DNA of 64,000 nucleotides from the human T2T-CHM13v2.0 reference genome, Homo sapiens. The position numbers and the translations under genes are program-made. The notes under the pieces are model-generated. The model saw only the letters and a list, made by a program, of their open reading frames with translations. It ran no database searches and was not told the DNA's origin. Positions 1,701-18,415 of the stretch are shown here, piece after piece; the stretch's first letter is position 1; each line of letters starts with the position of its first letter. The stretch is taken from NCBI RefSeq assembly GCF_009914755.1, contig NC_060935.1; one strand, written 5' to 3'.

Positions 1701-4700
1701 GGGATGTAGCTCAGCAAGATAGCTGACCAGACACAGCCAGGTAGAACAGCTGCTATGGAGGGACAAGGACAACTGGTGTGTTCCTAACAGATATTCCAAG
1801 AGAAGGCACTGGGAGTAGACGAAGGGAAGACACAGAAGCCGGGCTGAAGGGGAAGGAAGCTGGGAGTCCTTCATGGGGCTACCTCACAGTAGGACTCATT
1901 CTTAGCCCCCAGTGACTCAGAAAAATGAGTATGTTATGCTGGCAAGGAGCAACCTGCTCAATTCAACAAGAAGATGTAACTATCCTAAATATATGTGCAC
2001 CCAACAGAGAAGCACCTAGACTAATAAAGCAAGTTCTTAGAGACCTAATAAGAGATGCTGACTCCCACACAGTATTAGTTGGAGACTTTGACACCCCACT
2101 GACAGTATTAGGCAGATTATCAAGGCAAAAACTTAACAAAGATATCCAGGACCTGAACTCAGCACTGTATCAAATGGACCTGATTGACATCTACAGAACT
2201 CTCCACCTAAAAACAATAGAATATACATTCTTTTTATTGCCATATGGCACATATTTTAAAATCAACCACATAATCAGAGACAAAACACTCCTCAGCAAAT
2301 GCCAAAAAAAGTAAAATCATAACAACCGCTCTCTCTGACCATAGCACAATCAAGTTAGAAATCAAGACTAAGAAATTCACTCAAAAACATGTAATTTTGT
2401 GGAAATTGAATAACCTTCTCCTGAATGACTTCTGGGTAAATAATGGATGAAGGCTGAAATCAATAAGTTTTATGAAACTAATAAGAACAAAGATACAACA
2501 TACCAGAACCTCTGGGACACAGCTAAGACAGTGTTAAGAGGGAAATTTATAGTACCAGATGCTCACATCAAAAAGTTAGAAAATTTTCAATTTAATAATC
2601 TAACATCACAACTAAAAGAACTAGAGAATCAAGAGGAAACTAACTCCAAAGCTAGCAGAGGACAAGAAATAACAAAAATTAGTGATGAACTGAAAAAAAA
2701 TGAGACATAAGAAACCATTTAAAAGATCAACCAATACAGAAGCTAGTATTTTGAAAAATTTCATAAAATAGATGGCTAGCTAGACTAATAAAGAAAAAAT
2801 AGAGAAGATTCAAATAAACAGAATCAGAAACAACATGAGGATGTTACTACCGACCCCACAGAAAAACAACCATCAGAGAATATTATGAATACCTCTCTGC
2901 ACATAAACTAAAAAATCTAGAAGAAATGGATAAATTTCTGGACACATTTACCCTCTCAAAACTGGACCAAGAAGAAACCGAATCTCTAAATAGACCAATA
3001 ATGACTCTGAAATTGAATCAGAAATAGTGACAACAACAACAAAAGGCCAGGATTAGACAGATTCACAGCTGAATTCTACCAGATATACAAAAAAAAGCTC
3101 ATACCATTCCTACTGAAATTATTCCACAAAATGGAGGAGGAAGGACTCCTTTGTATCTCAGTCTATTAGGCCAGCATCATCCTGATACCAAAACCTGGAA
3201 GAGATACAGCAAAAAGAAAAATAAAACACTGGGCCAATATCCTTGAAGAACTTTGATGCAAAAATCCTAGACAGTATATTGGCAAACCAAATTCTGTGGC
3301 ACATCATAAAGCTTATTCACCACTATCAAGTAAGCTTTTTCCCCGGAAGCAAGGTTTGATATATGCAAATCAATAAATGTGATTCATCACATAAACAGAA
3401 CTAAATACAAAAACCACATGATTGTCTCAATAGATGCAGAAAAGGCTTTCAATAAATTTCAACACTCCTTCATGTTAAAAACTTTCAGTCAATTAGGTAT
3501 TGAAGAAACATACGTCAAAATAATAACAGCCAACTATGACAAACACACAGCCAACATCATACTGAATGGCAAAAATCTGGAAGCATTCCCCTTGAAAACT
3601 GGTAAAAAACAAGGATGTCATCTCTCACCACTCCTATTCAACATAGTATTGGAAGTCCTAGCCAGAGCAATCAGGCAAGGGAAAGAAATAAAGAGCATCC
3701 AAACAGGAAGAGAGGAAGTCAAACTAGCCCCGTTTGCAAATGACATGGTTCTGTAGCTAGAAAACCCTATAATTTTGGTCCCAAAGCTCCTTAAGCTGAT
3801 AGACAACTTCATCAAAATTTCAAAGTCTCAAAATTAATGTACAAAAATCATTAGCATTCCCATACACTAACAATAATCAAGTCAAGAGCCAAATCAGGAA
3901 CACAATTCCATTCACGACTGCCACCAAAAGAGTAAAATACCTAGCAATACAGCTAACTAGGGAGCTGAAATATCTCTACAAAGAGAGTTACAAAACACTG
4001 CTCAAAGAAATCAGAGATGACACACACAAAAAATGGGAAAACATTCCCTGTTCATGGATAGGAAGAATCAATATTGCTAAAATGGCCATATTGTCCAAAG
4101 CCATTTATAGATTCAATGCTTTTCTTATCAAACTGCCTTTGAGATTCTTCACAGAACTAAAAAAAAACTATTTTAAAATTCATGTGGAACCAAAAACCAG
4201 CCAAAATAGCAAAGGCAATTCTAAGCAAAAAGAACAAAGCTGGAGGCATCATGCTACCCAACTTCAAACTATACTGCAGGACTACAGTAACCAAAACAGC
4301 ATGGCACTGGTACAAAAACAGACATAGACTAATGGAACAGAACAAAGAGCACAGAAATAAGGCTGCACATCTGCAACCATCTGATATTTGACAAACCTGA
4401 CAAAAACAAGCAATGGGGAAAAGATTCCCTATTTAATAACTGATGCTGGGATAACTGGCTAGCTATATGAAGAAGATTGAAACTGGACTTCATTACACTA
4501 TATACAAAAATCAACTTAAGATGAATTGAAGACTTACATGTAAAACCCCAAACTATAAAAACCCTGGAAGACATCCTAGGCAATACCATTCTGGACATAG
4601 GAATAAGGAAAGTTTTTATGACAAAGATGCCAAAAGCAATCACAACAAAAGCAAAAATTGACAAATGGAATCCAATTAAACTAAAGAGTGTCTGCACAGC

Positions 4701-5669
4701 AAAAGAAACTATCAATGCAGTACACAGACAACCTACAGAATGGGAGAAAATATTTGCTAACTATGTATCTGTCAAAAGTCTAATATCCAGCATCTATAAG
4801 AAACTTAAATTTATGAGAAAAAACAAACAAACAATCCCATTAAAAAGTGGGTAAAGGACCTGAAGACACCTTTCAAAAGAAGATATACATGTGACCAACA
4901 GGCATATGAAATAATGCTCGACACATTGATTATTACAGAAATGCAAATCAAAACCACAATGAAATATCTCATACCAGTCAGAACAGCTATTAAAAAAAAA
5001 AAAAAACAGGTGCTGGCAAGGCTGTGGATACAAAGGAATGCTTATACGCTGTTGTTGGCAGTGTAAATTAGTTTAACCATTGTGGAAAACAGTGTGGTGA
5101 CTCCTCAAAGGCCTAAAAACAGAACTACCATTTGACCCAGCAATCTCATACTGGGTGTATACCCCAAATAATATAAATAGTTTTATCATAAAGACACATG
5201 CATGTGTATGTTTATTGCAGTGCTATTCACAATAGCAAAGACATAGAATCAACCTAAATGCCCATCAATGGTAGACTGGATAAAGGAAATGTGGTACATA
5301 TACACTTTGGAATACTATGCAGCCATAAAAAAGAATGAGATCATGTCCCTTGTAAGACACCGATGGAGCTGCAGGCCATTATCCTTAGCAAACTAATTCA
5401 TGAATAGAAAAACCAAATACTGCATGTTCTCACTTATAATTGGGAGCTAAGTGATGAGAACACATGGACACATAGAGGGCAACAGCAGACAATGGGGCCT
5501 ATCAGAGAGAGGATCTGGGATGAGAGAGAGGATCAGGAAAAATAACTAGTGGGTACAAGGCTTAATAGCTGAGTGACAAAATTGTCTGTACAACAAACCC
5601 CCATGACAGATTTACCTATATAAGAAACCTGCACATATACCCCTGAAATTAAAATAAAAGTTAAAAACA
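1701..5669 (+). mobile_element. L1PA13-16-like LINE-1: about 255 bp of 5'UTR fused to ORF2 (ORF1 absent), then 3'UTR and A-rich tail
   Basis: 13-bp TSD AGAGAATAGAACA at 1688-1700 and 5670-5682, preceded by TT. Fragmented EN, RT and C-terminal ORF2 peptides ([44 protein letters not shown]). Typical 3'UTR end. Confidence 0.93.
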
Positions 5670-5682
5670 AGAGAATAGAACA

Positions 5683-6032
5683 ATGGGTTATCAGAGGCTA
5701 GAGAGGGTAGAAAGGATCAGGGGATTATGGGATGGTGGTCAATTAGTACAAAGTTAGAAGAGTTACATAGGAAAAACAAGTCCAAGTCTTCCATTGCACT
5801 GTAGCATGACTACAGTTAATAATTATTGTATATTTCAAAATAGTAACAGCTAGAAAAGAGGATTCTGGGTTTTCTCCACAAAGAATAAATGTTTGAGGTG
5901 ATGGATATGCTGATTACTCTGATTTGATCATTACACAATGTATACATGTATCAAAACATCACACTGTACCTCATAAATATGTACAATTACTATATCTCAA
6001 TTAAAATATAATAAAACTTAAAAAAAATAAAA
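5683..6032 (+). mobile_element. Remainder of the L1MA 3'UTR with A-rich tail
   Basis: gtttgaggtgatggatatgc...gatcattacacaatgtatacatgtatcaaaacatcac...aataaaa matches the L1MA 3' end. Confidence 0.88.
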
Positions 6033-6693
6033 TTCCCTGGTGTGGGTGGCAAATTATATGGTTGCCCTACTATCATTTCTGCACACATGACTTGTTTGAC
6101 TTCCTCTAGGCCTTTAGCAATGTTGTGGGAGTTCAGGCTGACCTAGAGGCACAGATCTCAAGCTCCAGAAAGCCATTTCCAGCCACTCGCCGTGGGGTAG
6201 GCAGTCTATTGGCCAGGAGAAAATTTTCACATTAGGTTGTGAAAATAATTTTGTTTCAGAAGCAAACAGTTTATTTCAGTACAGAGTAAAGGCTTCTGCG
6301 GAGATTAACCTGCTTCTGAGCCCTGAAACTTATTTCAATTTATTCAATTATTAAAATTTTCTCCTGGCCAATAGACTGCCCATCCCATGGTGAGTGGCTG
6401 GAAACTGCTTTCTGGAGCTTGAGGTCTGTGCCTCTAGGTCAGCCTGAACTCCCACAACATTGCTAAAGGCCGAGAGGAAGTCACACAAGTCATGTCTGCA
6501 GAAATGATAATACGGCAACCATATAATTTGCCACCCACACCAGGAAATTTTAATTTTTTTTAAGTTTTATGAAATTTTAATTGAGATATAATAATAGTAC
6601 ATATTTATGTGGTACAGTGTGATGTTTTGATACATGTATACATTGTGTAATGATCAAATCGGAGTAATTAGCTTATCCATCACCTCAAACATT
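5888..6693. repeat. Long inverted repeat: arms 5888-6227 and 6353-6693, 125-bp spacer
   Basis: Hand alignment gives 21 substitutions and one 1-bp indel over about 340 bp. Confidence 0.98.
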
Positions 6694-6754
6694 AATTTAA
6701 TTCACATTTAATTAATTTAGTTCACAAAAATAGTAACAGATGTTACTATTCTCG

Positions 6755-6758
6755 CTCT

Positions 6759-6800
<42 letters not shown>

Positions 6801-6840
6801 TGTGAAGAGAGGGAAAGAGTCAGAGACAGAGAGAGATAAA
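6755..6840. repeat. (TG)n microsatellite with CT- and GA-rich flanks
   Basis: Directly visible. Confidence 0.95.
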
Positions 6841-8405
6841 AGAAAAATGTTTAAAGCAAACATGTCAAAATGATTAACAATTAATGAAGTATTATTTTTC
6901 AACTTTTTAAAATACTTTCAAAATATAAAACAAAAAGTAAACAACTAAAAATATAATTGGGATAAAATTACTTGTGTTTGGGCAGTGAAGTCAGTGGGTG
7001 CTACCATTTGAAGGCAGAAGGTTAGAAGTTAATGAAACTGCACTTTATGATGACAGCCTAGTAAACCTGTGTGCCCATCACTTCTGTAAAGCGCTGACCC
7101 AAAAAGAGCTGCACAAGGAACACTAACTTTTTAGGAGCTTGCCTGCCCTTTAACACCAACTGGCTGCTAAAGCGTCATGTACGGCCATCTCCACATCTGC
7201 AGGCTAGAACCCAATTCTCCATTTTCTCAACCTGCTCTACCTAACGTATAAAACATTGGAACTCATTTTTATCTAACTCCTCAAAGCCTATTGTACATCA
7301 TCAGGTTAGACTTTCCATTAAGGACGTAATAGCTATAATTATACTTAAGTCTGATATATTTTTCTAAAGTGGAGAATACAGATTCAGGCACTTCCACTAG
7401 AGTTTGAGAAATCTGGGAGGAAATTTAGCTTTCCTGTGCTTTGAGAGTTAAAAGAGTGCTCAAAAGTTGCAAGGCAGTCCTTCACTCTAGGCCTGATTGC
7501 TAGGATAAGAGCCAGGGAGCCATGTGGGAAAACCATTTAAGCTTGGAACCCCAGATGAGTCTGTTCTGGCTCACAAGAAGAAGTAAGGCTGAGTCCTCTT
7601 TTGGCTAGGGATACATGGGAACAAAAAGGTTCAGGATCACCATGGGCCCCACCAGAGGAATGCAGAGGAGAGGGGTGGGACTATGGCAGATGCTAGCTTC
7701 ATGGACTACCGAAAGCATCCTAAAGGAGGCATTGAACTTTATTAGCAAAGACCATTTTGTTTGAAATTCCTCACTCCTTCCTATCTTACTCCATTATGAG
7801 GCAATGGAACACACAGTAATATAGAGCAGGAAACAGCCAACTTATCTAAATGTTAATGACAATAATTACTGGCCTGGAGAAAATCTTTTAGTTCAATTGA
7901 AATATTTCATAAACATCATTGGGAGGATTTGTTGGGGTTAGCGGTTCTCCTAGCAATGAGGGGCCTTTATCAGGACTAGCGTGACTTTCCAGAAGATAAT
8001 TAACACTCAGCTGGGCTGGTGGCGGAGTTGGTAGCATGGGACTGCTAAACTGGGTGGTGAGGGAGAGAAGGAGGGAAGCACTGTGAAGGTCATGATGAAA
8101 AAAAAATCTGAAAAAAAAAAAAAAGAAAAGCAAGGCTATGTAAACTATGAGTATTGTGATGAGTCCAGACTATGTCCTTGACTGTCATTGGCCCATTTCC
8201 CACTTATTGTGCAAGACCTACTCAGCTGAAAAACTGTGAACTTGTTTGAGATGTTTTTATTGATTGTAAAAAGGTGAGAGTAAAAAAGAGAAAACAATGG
8301 GCCCTGTGAGGAGAAAGAAAGATGTACAGCTAGCCATCCTGAGACCAAGAAAGTACCCTGGGATGTAATGTGAGAAGAACCTTTGTAGGAAATCCCTACA
8401 AAAAA

Positions 8406-11895: not shown

Positions 11896-14138
11896 TGATA
11901 TGGTTAGGCTTTGTGTCCCCACTCAAATTTCATGTTGAATTATAGTCCCTATTATCCCCACACGTTGTGGGACAAACCCAGTGGGAGGTAATTTAATCAA
12001 GGGGGCAGTTACCTTCATAGTGTTCTTATGATAGTGACTTCTCATGAAATCTGATGGTTTTATAAGGGGCTTTTCCCCGTTTTGCTCGGCACATCTCCTT
12101 GCTGCCTCCATGTGAAGAAGGATGTGTTTGCTTTCCCTTCCGCCATGATTGTAAGTTTCCTAAGGCCTCCCCAGCCCTGTGGAACTGTGAATCAATTAGA
12201 CTTCTTTCCTCTATAAATTACCCAGTCTCGGTATGTCTTTATTAGCAGCATGAGAAGAAACTAATACAGTAAATTGGTACCAGGTAGTGGGGTGTTACCG
12301 TAAAAATATCTGAAAATGTGGAAGTGACTTTGGAACTGGGTAAGAGGCAGAGGTAGGAACAATTTGGAGGGCTCAGAAGAAGATAGGAAGATGTGGGAAA
12401 GTTTGGAATTTCCTAGAGATTTGTTGAATGGCTTTGACCAAAGTGCTGATAGTGATATGGATGGACAATGGAAGTCCAGGCTGAGGCGATCTTAGAGATG
12501 AGGAGCTTTTTGGGAACTGGAGTAAAGGTCACTCTTGCTGTGCAAAGAGACTGCTGGCATTTTGCCACTGCCCTAGAGATCTGTGGAACTCCCAGCTTGA
12601 GAGAGATGATTTACGGCATCTGGTGGAAGAAATTTCTAAGTGGCAAAGCATTCAAGAAGAAGCACAGCATAAACGTTTAGAAAATTTGCAGCCTGACTAT
12701 GTGATAGAAAAGAAAACCTCATTTACTGAGTAGAAATTCAAGCTGGCTACAGAAATTTACATAAGTAATGAGGACCCAAATGTTAACCACCAAGGCATTG
12801 GGGAAAATGTCTCCAGGTCATTTTTCCCTAAGAGGGAAAAATCCTTTCATGGACCAGGCCCAGGGTCCCCCTGCAGCCTCAGGACTTGGTGCCCTGTGTA
12901 CCATCTGCTTCAGCTCCAGCCATGGCTAAAAGGGGCCAACATTCAGCTCAGCCCATTGCTTCAGAGAATACAAGCCCCAAGCCTTGGCAGCTTACACATT
13001 GTGTTGAGCCTGCGGGTACACATAAGTCAAAAACTGAGGTTTGGGAACCTCCACCTAGATTTCAGAGGATGTATGGAAACATTTGGTTGCCCAGACAGAA
13101 GTTTGATGCAGGGATGGAGCCCTCATGGAGAACCTCTGCTAGGGCAGTGAAGAAAGGAAATTGTGGGGTCAAAGCCCCCACACAGAGTCCCTCCTGGGGC
13201 ACTGTCTAGTGAAGCTGTGAGAAGAGGGCCACCATCCTCCAGACTCCAGAATAGTAGATACACCAACAGCATGCAACATGTGCCTGGAAAGGATGCAGAC
13301 ATTCAACACCAGCCTGTGAAAGCAGCCAGGAGTGGGGTTGTACCCTGCAAAGCCACAGGGGTGGAGCTGCCCAAGGCTGTGGGAGTACTCTTGCATCAGC
13401 ATGACCTGGATGTGAGACATGGAGTCAAAGGAGATCATTTTGGAACTTTAAGGTTTAATAACTCCCCTATTGGATTTTGGTCTTGCATGGGGCCTGCAGT
13501 CCCTTTGTTTTGGCCAATTTCTCTCATTTGGAATGGACATATTTTCCCAATGCCTGTACCCCCATTGTATCTCGGAAGTAACTACCTTGCTTTTGCTTTT
13601 ACAGGCTCATAGATGGAAGGGACTTGCCTTGTCTCAGGTGAGACTTTGGACTTAGACCCTTGGGTTAATGCTGGAATGAGTTAAGACTCAGGGACTATTG
13701 GAAGGGCATGATTGGGTTTAGAAATGTAAGGATATGAGATTTGGGATGGGCTGGGGCAGAATGATATGGTTGGACATTCTGTCCCTACTCAAATCTCATC
13801 TTGAATTGTAGTTCCCATAATCACCACATGCCATGGGAGGGACCCAATGGGAGGTAATTTAATCATGGGGGCAGTCACCCTCATGGTGGTCTCCTGATAG
13901 TGAGTGAGTTGTCATGATATCTGATAGTTTTTTTAGGGGCTTTCCCCTGTTTTGCCCAGCACTTCCCCTTGCTGCTGCCATGTGAAAAAGGATGTGTTTG
14001 CTTCTCCTCTGCCATAATTGTAAGTTTCCAAATGACTCCCCAGCCCTGTGGAACTGTGAGTCAATTGAAACATTTTCCTTTATAAATCATCCAGTCTTGG
14101 GTGTGTTTTTATTAGCAGCATGGGAATGGACTAATACA
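11896..14138 (+). mobile_element. Complete THE1 (THE1C/D-like) MaLR element: LTR 11896-12268, internal 12269-13761, LTR 13762-14138
   Basis: Both LTRs run TGATATGG...CTAATACA. Purine-rich tract precedes the 3' LTR. 5-bp TSD CATGC (11891-95) / CATGT (14139-43). Confidence 0.95.
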
Positions 14139-18038: not shown

Positions 18039-18415
18039 CATATTAATCTGTTCTCATGCTGCTATAAAGATTGCCCTTAGACTGGGTAATTTATAAAGGA
18101 AAGAGGTTTAATTGATTCACAGTTCTGCATTGCCGGGGAGACCTCAGGAAACTTACAACCACAGCGAAAGGCAAAGGAGAAGCGGGCATCTTCTTCCCAG
18201 GGTGATAGGAAGGAGTGAGTGCAAGCAGGGAAAATGCCAGACATTTATAAAACTATCAGATCTCATGACACTCACTCACTGTCACCACAACAGCATGGGG
18301 GAATCTGCCCCCAGGATCCAATTACCTTCACCGGGTCCTGCCCTTGATACATGGGGATTATGGGGATTACAATTCAAGATGAGATTTGGGGTGGGGACGC
18401 ATCCAAACCATAACA
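18039..18415 (-). mobile_element. THE1D-like solo LTR
   Basis: tattaatctgttctcatgctgctataaag...gcagggaaaatgccagac...gagatttggggtggggac..ccaaaccataaca. Confidence 0.92.

What the first reader, a model, noticed from the sequence alone, without database searches (positions are those of the whole stretch)
5888..6693. Large inverted duplication (340-bp arms, ~94% identity, 125-bp loop) spanning an L1 3' end and its flank
Seen: 5888-6227 is the reverse complement of 6353-6693 with 21 substitutions and one indel. The duplicated unit crosses the L1MA tail into about 195 bp of non-L1 flank, so it is not two independent inverted insertions. It is a local fold-back duplication made after the L1 inserted. 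Known: closely spaced, high-identity inverted repeats are unstable and depleted in mammalian genomes. They can extrude hairpins or cruciforms, and if transcribed they give long dsRNA (ADAR, Dicer, MDA5/PKR substrate). Inference: this is a persistent non-Alu hairpin locus and the best candidate for undescribed function here, for example an endo-siRNA/editing source or a recurrent micro-inversion site.
Basis: partly seen in the sequence, partly recalled or inferred. Interest (0 to 1): 0.8.

Follow-up and report, generated by a model that had tools for sequence, protein, structure and literature searches.

The report
Old local inverted duplication, likely neutral
A 345-base piece of human chromosome 11, made of the tail of an ancient L1 element plus the unique DNA next to it, was copied backwards 125 bases downstream some 15-33 million years ago, and nothing in the sequence suggests it does anything.

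Summary
The inverted repeat is real. The arms are 5884-6227 and 6353-6697, with 322 of 344 aligned bases identical (93.6%), one 1-base indel and a 125-base spacer. A single strand folds far better than shuffles (z about -54 as RNA, -50 as DNA).

Each arm holds 147/148 bases of an old L1 3' end plus 197 bases of flank. That flank occurs nowhere else in this genome.

Twenty-eight other copies of the L1 tail serve as outgroup. They show 8 changes shared by both arms, then 3 left-only and 5 right-only changes. Both arms have therefore decayed independently. Mismatches are evenly spread, with no excess of transitions.

K2P distance is 0.067, which gives roughly 15-33 Myr. The copy sits inside a short AT-rich tandem array and shows a 5-base microhomology at one junction.

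No gene, Rfam family or other sign of function was found (hub annotation). Spacer length and divergence place it in the range that yeast experiments find tolerated.

Verdict: a genuine but ordinary relic. Function is untested and unlikely.

The parts
2444..6030 (+). Decayed L1 element on the + strand, ending in an A-rich tail at about 6017-6030. The 5' limit was not determined.
   Evidence: Pfam RVT_1 hit on the open stretch 3334-3753 (E 4.1e-16). One full reading frame (3001-5499) holds 41 stops. In all 28 paralogous loci examined, alignments to 5656-6035 end at the A-rich tail; 25 of the 28 also match 4600-5500, which in the loci checked by eye lies just upstream on the same strand.
5884..6227 (+). 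Left arm (344 nt). This is the original copy, because it is continuous with the L1 body upstream.
   Evidence: continuity with the L1.
5884..6030 (+). L1 3'-tail part of the left arm (147 nt).
   Evidence: The first look found 4816 candidates in the genome, of which 40 were scored. The hits other than this locus's own two copies are 75-82% identical. The 28 paralog alignments end at window 6006-6035.
6031..6227 (+). Unique non-L1 flank part of the left arm (197 nt).
   Evidence: The whole-genome search found only itself and its inverted copy.
6228..6352 (.). Spacer (125 nt), single copy. Probably ancestral sequence in its original orientation.
   Evidence: Its own self-complementarity is not significant (51 of 500 shuffles and 7% of genomic controls reach it).
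6353..6697 (-). Right arm (345 nt). This is the inverted copy: 6353-6549 copies the flank and 6550-6697 copies the L1 tail.
   Evidence: Genome search hits at 93% identity on the minus strand.
6331..6352 (+). Left half of a short AT-rich tandem array, into which the inverted copy appears to have been inserted.
   Evidence: With the right arm removed in a script, Tandem Repeats Finder arrays run across the junction with scores of 56-57, against 43-44 in the present sequence. A 16-of-20 match to 6698-6717 was found.
6698..6726 (+). Right half of the same AT-rich array (11-base unit, about 3 copies).
   Evidence: 6695-6726, period 11, 3.1 copies, 78% matches.

Best explanation
This is a relic of a single local DNA-level inverted duplication. 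An old L1 was already in place on the + strand. Later, during replication or break repair, a growing DNA strand that had reached position 6352 switched to the opposite strand about 125 bases behind it. It copied 344 bases backwards, from 6227 down to 5884, across the L1 poly-A tail into the L1 3' end. It then returned to the original template. In the four-point template-switch notation this is a '3-2-1-4' event. The effect was to insert a reverse-complement copy of 'L1 tail + flank' into a short AT-rich tandem array. Since then both arms have decayed independently at the neutral rate, for roughly 15-33 million years. The repeat persists because a 125-base spacer and growing divergence make cruciform or hairpin extrusion rare, not because it is used. 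SHOWN: the structure itself; the L1 and single-copy make-up of the arms; shared changes followed by arm-specific changes; random spread of mismatches; no match to a known RNA family. INFERRED: the template-switch or fold-back mechanism, the date, and the lack of function.
For: (1) The arms are 5884-6227 and 6353-6697, 322 of 344 identical, with one indel and a 125-nt spacer.
(2) Each arm is part L1 and part unique. All 28 paralog alignments of the L1 tail stop at window 6006-6035. The sequence 6031-6352 has only two matches in the 3.1-Gb genome, itself and the right arm. The right-hand flank 6698-7400 is also single copy.
(3) Order of events: 133 L1-derived columns were polarised with 28 paralogs. 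Both arms equal the majority in 116, both share a departure in 8, the left alone departs in 3, the right alone in 5, and 1 is ambiguous. The L1 had therefore already aged before it was copied, and both copies have changed since.
(4) Neutral-looking decay: 9 differences in 147 L1 bases against 13 in 197 flank bases. Mismatch spacing is indistinguishable from random (P 0.49 for the longest gap, 0.40 for dispersion). There are 11 transitions and 11 transversions, and only 6 (+ transcript) or 5 (- transcript) of 22 mismatches would be G:U wobbles.
(5) Junctions: the copy lies inside an AT-rich tandem array that becomes continuous when the copy is removed. The last 5 bases of the insert equal the last 5 bases of the spacer (TTATT, taking 6694 as T, as the paralog majority implies). 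That microhomology is of the kind expected for a template switch or microhomology-mediated repair.
(6) The copy lies 125 bases from its template, which is what local strand switching predicts.
(7) Template switching that creates inverted repeats is documented in human and ape genomes (PMC5453318, passages read; PMC7954356, passages read).
(8) No gene is annotated in the window (hub annotation), and no Rfam family reaches its gathering score.
Against: No orthologous sequence from another primate could be examined. The empty site, the date and the orientation of the spacer in the ancestor are therefore inferred, not seen.
The inner junction (6352|6353) shows no clear microhomology. The TSD-like similarity across the insert is only marginal (88 of 2000 shuffles and 1.3% of genomic controls reach it).
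The template-switch events catalogued in apes are short. That scan searched only +/-100 nt around each mutation cluster, so a 344-base copy is well outside what those catalogues document.
A 1:1 transition:transversion ratio is not what neutral human DNA usually gives, although it does not differ significantly from 2:1 (P 0.11).
Absence of function rests on absence of annotation and on the substitution pattern. Transcription, editing and small-RNA data were not available.
The clock rates used for dating are recalled, not taken from a call.
Confidence: 0.8

Rival explanations
1. Same DNA-level class, different path: a micro-inversion by staggered breaks, or a '3-1-2-4' template switch. A 344-base stagger on one side would be filled in, so that the 125-base spacer is inverted relative to the ancestor and flanked by an inverted duplication.
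For: It would give the same present-day structure. PMC5453318 reports events that create an inverted repeat around an inverted spacer as 23% of its high-confidence human-chimp events (passages read).
Against: The AT-rich tandem units at the end of the spacer (6331-6352) have the same orientation as those right after the right arm (6698-6726). They form one array when the arm is removed. This argues that the spacer still has its ancestral orientation. The evidence is weak, with control frequencies of 1.3-4.4%.
Confidence: 0.08
2. A functional hairpin-RNA locus: the region is transcribed, folds into a 344-bp duplex, and serves as an ADAR substrate or small-RNA precursor. This would be a new RNA gene born from an inverted duplication.
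For: If transcribed, either strand would fold into a very stable hairpin. It would be 93.6% Watson-Crick paired, or about 95% counting G:U, with perfect runs of up to 50 bp. Template switching is proposed as a source of new miRNA hairpins in primates (abstract of 10.1101/2023.04.19.537475 seen in the search listing).
Against: No gene or functional element is annotated in the window. The nearest lncRNA ends about 12 kb upstream of the repeat (hub annotation). No Rfam family reaches threshold. The only notable hit is a plant miRNA model at 101 bits against a gathering score of 230. It matches both strands almost equally, which fits a match to the long hairpin itself rather than to one strand's sequence. 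Both arms carry their own derived changes, and mismatches show no bias towards pair-preserving transitions. In the dsRNAscan census, 88% of long highly paired predicted dsRNAs are intergenic and 74% are unedited, which the authors attribute to lack of transcription (PMC11838218, section 10 read).
Confidence: 0.05
3. A retrotransposition product: a read-through transcript covering the L1 tail plus 197 bases of flank (a 3'-transduction-like RNA) was reverse-transcribed by L1 machinery and inserted in antisense.
For: The copied unit starts inside an L1 3' end and runs past its poly-A signal, as 3' transductions do. The insert is flanked by a marginal 16-of-20 direct repeat in AT-rich DNA.
Against: There is no poly-A tail at the end that would be the RNA's 3' end. 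The bases next to 6353 are mixed AT and belong to the tandem array. By eye, no AATAAA signal lies upstream of 6227. A retrocopy landing 125 bases from its source by chance is extremely unlikely. The direct repeat is explained by the tandem array.
Confidence: 0.03
4. An assembly artefact: a fold-back chimeric read incorporated into the assembly.
For: Fold-back chimeras occur in long-read data. No second human assembly could be checked here, and an exact 36-base junction search in the genome-contig collection found nothing.
Against: An artefactual fold-back gives identical arms. These arms differ at 22 sites plus an indel, and each arm has derived states of its own relative to 28 L1 paralogs.
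Confidence: 0.01

Closest known systems
Long inverted repeats (LIRs) of the human genome, as censused with Inverted Repeats Finder or einverted (criteria of Wang and Leung 2006 as quoted in PMC4319165; dsRNAscan, PMC11838218)
   Same: Stem over 30 bp, stem identity over 85%, spacer under 2 kb: all three are met. It is intergenic, unannotated and partly built from LINE sequence. In that it resembles most of the long, highly paired predicted dsRNAs of the dsRNAscan census.
   Different: Most catalogued cases are two independent repeat copies (Alu or LINE) that happen to face each other. Here one unit spanning a repeat and its unique flank was copied, so the repeat is a true local duplication. 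It is below the 400-nt arm cut-off of LIRBase. By my count it is also below the 96% pairing cut-off of the dsRNAscan 'long, highly paired' class.
Short-range template-switch mutations (four-point model; Loytynoja and Goldman 2017, PMC5453318; Walker et al. 2021, PMC7954356)
   Same: A stretch is replaced or extended by the reverse complement of nearby sequence, creating an inverted repeat. The layout matches event type '3-2-1-4'.
   Different: Catalogued events are tens of bases long and were searched for within about +/-100 nt. This copy is 344 bases, with jumps of about 125 and 470 bases. The ancestral state that defines such an event was not seen here.
Closely spaced inverted Alu pairs studied as fragile motifs in yeast (Lobachev laboratory; PMC10164571)
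   Same: Arm length is similar (about 320 bp there, 344 bp here), and there is the same potential to form a hairpin or cruciform.
   Different: The strongly unstable constructs have 12-bp spacers and 100% identity. Passages read report the following. Going from a 12-bp to a 100-bp spacer lowers recombination about 300-fold. Going from 12 bp to 200 bp lowers gross rearrangements about 20-fold. Going from 100% to 94% identity lowers gross rearrangements about 15-fold. This locus has a 125-bp spacer and 93.6% identity.
Hairpin-RNA (hpRNA) / endo-siRNA loci (Drosophila, plants, mouse oocytes; summarised in LIRBase, PMC8728187)
   Same: A long inverted repeat that would give a long hairpin if transcribed.
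   Different: Those loci are defined by transcription and by 21-22-nt products, and neither is known here. That human cells process long hairpins poorly is recalled from general knowledge and was not tested.

Membership tests
Long inverted repeat, 'recombinogenic' criteria of Wang and Leung as quoted in PMC4319165 | Stem longer than 30 bp | tested here: met
   344/345 nt
Long inverted repeat, 'recombinogenic' criteria of Wang and Leung as quoted in PMC4319165 | Stem identity above 85% | tested here: met
   93.6%
Long inverted repeat, 'recombinogenic' criteria of Wang and Leung as quoted in PMC4319165 | Internal spacer under 2 kb | tested here: met
   125 nt
LIRBase LIR (PMC8728187) | Both arms longer than 400 nt | tested here: not met
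   Arms are 344 and 345 nt; criterion read
dsRNAscan 'long, highly paired' dsRNA (PMC11838218) | More than 300 bp | tested here: met
   344 bp; criterion read
dsRNAscan 'long, highly paired' dsRNA (PMC11838218) | More than 96% of nucleotides paired | tested here: not met
   322 of 344 Watson-Crick pairs (93.6%). With G:U counted, 328 of 344 on the + transcript and 327 of 344 on the - transcript, about 95%. Their own counting method may differ, and their tables S1 and S5 were not held.
Template-switch mutation, four-point model type 3-2-1-4 (PMC5453318) | The inserted fragment is the reverse complement of nearby sequence and creates an inverted repeat | tested here: met
   the template lies 125 nt away
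Template-switch mutation, four-point model type 3-2-1-4 (PMC5453318) | A sister lineage or ancestor lacks the fragment and shows the linear sequence | not testable with these tools
   No primate genomes are held. Indirect support only: the AT-rich array becomes continuous when the right arm is removed.
L1-mediated retrocopy / 3' transduction | Poly-A tail at the 3' end of the insert | tested here: not met
   The bases adjoining 6353 are mixed AT and part of a tandem array, not an A/T run
L1-mediated retrocopy / 3' transduction | Target-site duplication flanking the insert | tested here: inconclusive
   A 16-of-20 match is reached by 88 of 2000 shuffles and 1.3% of genomic controls. It is explained equally well by the tandem array.
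DNA transposon or MITE with terminal inverted repeats | Multiple copies in the genome | tested here: not met
   The flank plus spacer matches only itself and its own inverted copy. Caveat: the search is built for fairly close matches, so very old diverged copies could be missed.
Known RNA family (Rfam 15), including miRNA precursors | Score at or above the family's gathering score | tested here: not met
   Best hits: MIR7533 at 101.4 bits (+) and 90.5 bits (-) against 230; SCARNA7 at 36.1 bits against 65, over a stretch (6645-6830) that includes the TG microsatellite
   RVT_1 at 3334-3753. 4816 first-look candidates. The 28 paralog alignments end at the A-rich tail.
   No repeat-consensus library is available. 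Paralog identity of 75-82% fits an old family but names none.

The most novel reading that the evidence does not exclude
The inverted duplication is the raw material of a young, catarrhine-specific hairpin-RNA locus. An unannotated transcript crosses it in germline or brain, giving a 344-bp duplex that is heavily A-to-I edited or diced. It would be a non-Alu example of a dsRNA gene born in one step by a long-range template switch. That switch would be several-fold longer than the +/-100-nt search space of the great-ape scan read.
Probability: 0.05. Interest if true: 0.45.

Novelty: new member of a known kind. Interest (0 to 1): 0.15.

Why it matters
As it stands it matters little. It is one more intergenic long inverted repeat in a gene desert, of a kind that genome-wide scans already list in large numbers.

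Its one useful feature is that it is a clean case. The copied unit crosses a repeat/unique boundary, so it is provably a single duplication event. The L1 half also supplies a built-in outgroup (other copies of the family). That outgroup lets one polarise changes and show independent decay of both arms without any other species.

If primate orthologues confirm the empty site, the locus would document a germline template switch or fold-back copy of about 345 bases, with jumps of about 125 and 470 bases. That is beyond the +/-100-nt search space of the great-ape template-switch scan.

If it proved to be transcribed, it would be a non-Alu long-dsRNA source. Nothing points that way.

Tried and rejected
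(1) Does the palindrome reach into the spacer? The spacer aligned to its own reverse complement scores 19. That score is reached by 51 of 500 dinucleotide shuffles and 7% of 298 genomic 125-nt controls, so it is not significant. blastn does join the whole 814 nt into one self-reverse-complement alignment at 87% over 829 columns, but that comes from extension through the spacer.

(2) Target-site duplication around the right arm: there is a 16-of-20 match, but the statistics are marginal. It is better explained by the AT-rich tandem array.

(3) Gene conversion or a conserved sub-block within the arms: no sign. Mismatch spacing is random.

(4) Rfam: only sub-threshold matches. I read them as a generic long-hairpin match and a match over the microsatellite.

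I dropped the census. Instead I used only the window and the 28 loci already fetched (0 of 28 loci, 1 in the window), together with published censuses.

(6) Independent sighting of the inner junction: an exact 36-base search in genome contigs gave 0 hits, so it is uninformative.

(7) The dsRNAscan tables that might list this locus are not held. Only a PDF naming them is held.

(8) Warburton et al. 2004 (PMC524409) is not held. Their counts are therefore not cited.

I used open stretches instead. Only 1 of the 5 stretches matched a family (RVT_1).

(11) MITE or DNA-transposon reading: rejected because the flank is single copy.

Full report
**Observation.** The inverted repeat exists as described.
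- The repeat finder reports two gapless pieces, 6013-6227/6353-6567 and 5884-6032/6549-6697. These are one repeat broken by a single indel.
- A gapped alignment gives a left arm of 5884-6227 (344 nt), a right arm of 6353-6697 (345 nt) and a spacer of 6228-6352 (125 nt).
- There are 322 matches, 22 substitutions and one 1-base gap, or 93.6% identity.
- A single strand of the 814 nt folds to -584 kcal/mol as RNA (z -54 against 20 shuffles) and to -364 kcal/mol as DNA (z -50).
- It is the only inverted repeat of at least 60 nt, at least 80% identity and a spacer of 3 kb or less in the window. None occurs in 28 other loci of about 3.3 kb around paralogous L1 tails (0 of 28; 91,625 bases).

**What the arms are made of.**
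- Upstream of the left arm lies a decayed LINE on the + strand. An open stretch at 3334-3753 matches Pfam RVT_1 (E 4.1e-16; 1 of 5 stretches tested matched). One full reading frame (3001-5499) holds 41 stops.
- The stretch 5700-6016 is a high-copy repeat. The genome search's first look found 4816 candidates. Of these 40 were scored, and apart from the locus's own two copies they are 75-82% identical.
- In the 28 paralogous loci fetched, alignments to window 5656-6035 all end between 6006 and 6035, at the A-rich tail. In 25 of the 28 there is also a match to 4600-5500; in the loci I checked by eye (for example L006, L010, L011, L013) it lies just upstream on the same strand.
- So 5884-6030 is the last 147 bases of an L1 3' end. 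I could not test the label 'L1MA', because no repeat-consensus library is available.
- The next 197 bases (6031-6227) and the spacer are single copy. The whole-genome search with 6031-6352 finds only the query itself and the right arm at 93% on the opposite strand. The sequence to the right, 6698-7400, is also single copy. That search is built for fairly close matches, so very old diverged repeats could escape it.

**Order of events.** The copied unit crosses the L1/flank boundary and the flank is unique, so two independent L1 insertions are excluded. I used the 28 paralogous tails as an outgroup for the 133 scorable L1-derived columns of the arms.

| Pattern in the column | Columns |
|---|---|
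| Both arms carry the paralog majority base | 116 |
| Both arms share the same departure | 8 |
| Only the left arm departs | 3 |
| Only the right arm departs | 5 |
| Ambiguous | 1 |

The L1 had therefore already accumulated changes before it was copied, though some of the 8 could be subfamily-specific bases. Both copies have changed independently since, at similar rates. The left arm is continuous with the L1 body, so it is the original and the right arm is the copy. The independent derived changes also rule out a fold-back assembly artefact, which would give identical arms.

**Age.**
- The Kimura two-parameter distance between the arms is 0.067 (standard error about 0.014).
- With recalled substitution rates of 2.2e-9 to 1.0e-9 per site per year, this gives about 15-33 Myr.
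- With the 0.17% per Myr rate I recall being used for primate L1s, it gives about 20 Myr.
- The L1 part gives a relative date. About 6% divergence is shared before the copy (8 of 133) and about 3.4% per arm has arisen after it. The copy was therefore made roughly one third of the way back to the L1's insertion.
- If the copying itself was error-prone, the age is overestimated.
- These dates are inference. No orthologue was available.

**Mechanism.**
- The copy lies 125 bases from its template, in inverted orientation. That is the signature of a local strand switch (replication template switching, or fold-back priming during break repair). It is not the signature of a mobile-element insertion.
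- In the four-point notation of PMC5453318 (passages read) the layout is type 3-2-1-4, which creates an inverted repeat.
- The sequence just right of the right arm is a short AT-rich tandem array (6695-6726, 11-base unit, 3.1 copies). The end of the spacer carries similar units in the same orientation.
- When the right arm is removed in a script, the arrays run across the junction with higher scores (56-57 against 43-44). This supports, weakly, that 6352 and 6698 were once adjacent and that the spacer has kept its orientation.
- At the outer junction, the last 5 bases of the insert equal the last 5 bases of the spacer (TTATT), once 6694 is set to the base implied by the paralog majority at 5887. 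The inner junction shows no clear microhomology.
- A 16-of-20 direct repeat flanks the insert. It is only marginally unusual (88 of 2000 shuffles; 1.3% of 395 genomic controls), and the tandem array explains it.
- A retrotransposition origin is unlikely. There is no poly-A tract at the relevant end, by eye there is no AATAAA signal before 6227, and the chance of landing 125 bases from the source is negligible.
- A staggered-break micro-inversion would give the same present structure with an inverted spacer. The array orientation argues against it, but only an outgroup can decide.

**Function.** Nothing testable here points to one.
- The hub's annotation lists no gene or functional element in the window. 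The nearest lncRNA ends about 12 kb upstream of the repeat.
- Rfam gives only sub-threshold matches. A plant miRNA model (MIR7533) scores 101 and 91 bits on the two strands against a gathering score of 230, which I read as a match to any long hairpin. SCARNA7 scores 36 bits against 65, over a stretch that includes the TG microsatellite.
- Differences between the arms are spread evenly: 9 in 147 L1 bases and 13 in 197 flank bases. The longest clean run is 50 bp, and the spacing tests give P 0.49 and 0.40.
- There are 11 transitions and 11 transversions. Only 6 (+ transcript) or 5 (- transcript) of the 22 mismatches would still pair as G:U. Selection for an RNA stem would favour such changes, and they are not enriched.
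- A real test of constraint needs orthologues, and a real test of use needs RNA data. Neither was available.

**Stability.**
The parameters here are mild.
- Passages read in PMC10164571 report, for 320-bp inverted Alus in yeast, about 300-fold less recombination when the spacer grows from 12 to 100 bp. They also report about 20-fold fewer gross rearrangements from 12 to 200 bp, and about 15-fold fewer when identity drops from 100% to 94%.
- With a 125-base spacer from birth and 93.6% identity now, survival needs no special explanation.
- Recurrent flipping of the spacer by recombination between the arms seems unlikely today. The longest perfect block is 50 bp, well below the roughly 200 bp of uninterrupted identity that I recall being needed for efficient mammalian homologous recombination. 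That figure is recalled, not tested.

**Comparison with what is known.**
- The locus meets the 'recombinogenic long inverted repeat' criteria quoted in PMC4319165: stem over 30 bp, identity over 85%, spacer under 2 kb.
- It falls below LIRBase's 400-nt arm cut-off.
- By my count it also falls below the 96% pairing cut-off of the 'long, highly paired' class of dsRNAscan.
- That census predicts 5,134,754 dsRNAs in the human genome. About 1 million are longer than 300 bp, and 2,018 are both over 300 bp and over 96% paired. Of those 2,018, most lie between inverted LINEs, 88% are intergenic and 74% are unedited (PMC11838218, section 10 read).
- The locus is thus an uncommon but recognised kind of object. 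It is probably already among those predictions, but the tables were not held.
- What sets it apart from most listed cases is its origin as a true duplication spanning a repeat/unique boundary. Its length also lies outside the +/-100-nt search space of the great-ape template-switch scan (PMC7954356, passages read).

**Verdict.** The functional half is unsupported and unlikely. Interest is low. The most novel reading not excluded is a young hairpin-RNA locus, at about 5%.

**Not done.**
- Primate orthologues, pangenome haplotypes, RNA, editing and small-RNA data, and L1 subfamily naming: no tool for these.

Noticed in passing
window 5451-5665: About 215 bases inside the L1 3' region have no counterpart in the paralogs. 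0 of 28 paralog alignments cross this stretch. In several paralogs the blocks matching 4600-5450 and 5666-6035 lie only about 18-130 bases apart, against 216 here. This could be a subfamily-specific segment, a nested fragment or a poorly alignable purine-rich stretch.
   Followed up: partly
window 6762-6804: A (TG)22 microsatellite lies 65 bases right of the right arm. It lies within the stretch (6645-6830) of the sub-threshold SCARNA7 match.
   Followed up: no
window 6695-6726 and 6331-6352: A short AT-rich tandem array (11-base unit, about 3 copies on the right, with similar units at the end of the spacer) is split by the inverted copy.
   Followed up: yes
window 13783-14112 and 18064-18395: Two weak inverted pairs (63 and 95 nt, 76-79% complementary, about 4-4.5 kb apart). 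They are probably two old repeat copies facing each other.
   Followed up: no
window 6136-6444: The Rfam plant miRNA model MIR7533 matches both strands at 91-101 bits (E 1e-18 to 1e-20) but far below its gathering score of 230. I read this as a warning that any long near-perfect hairpin can draw strong E-values from long-hairpin covariance models.
   Followed up: partly
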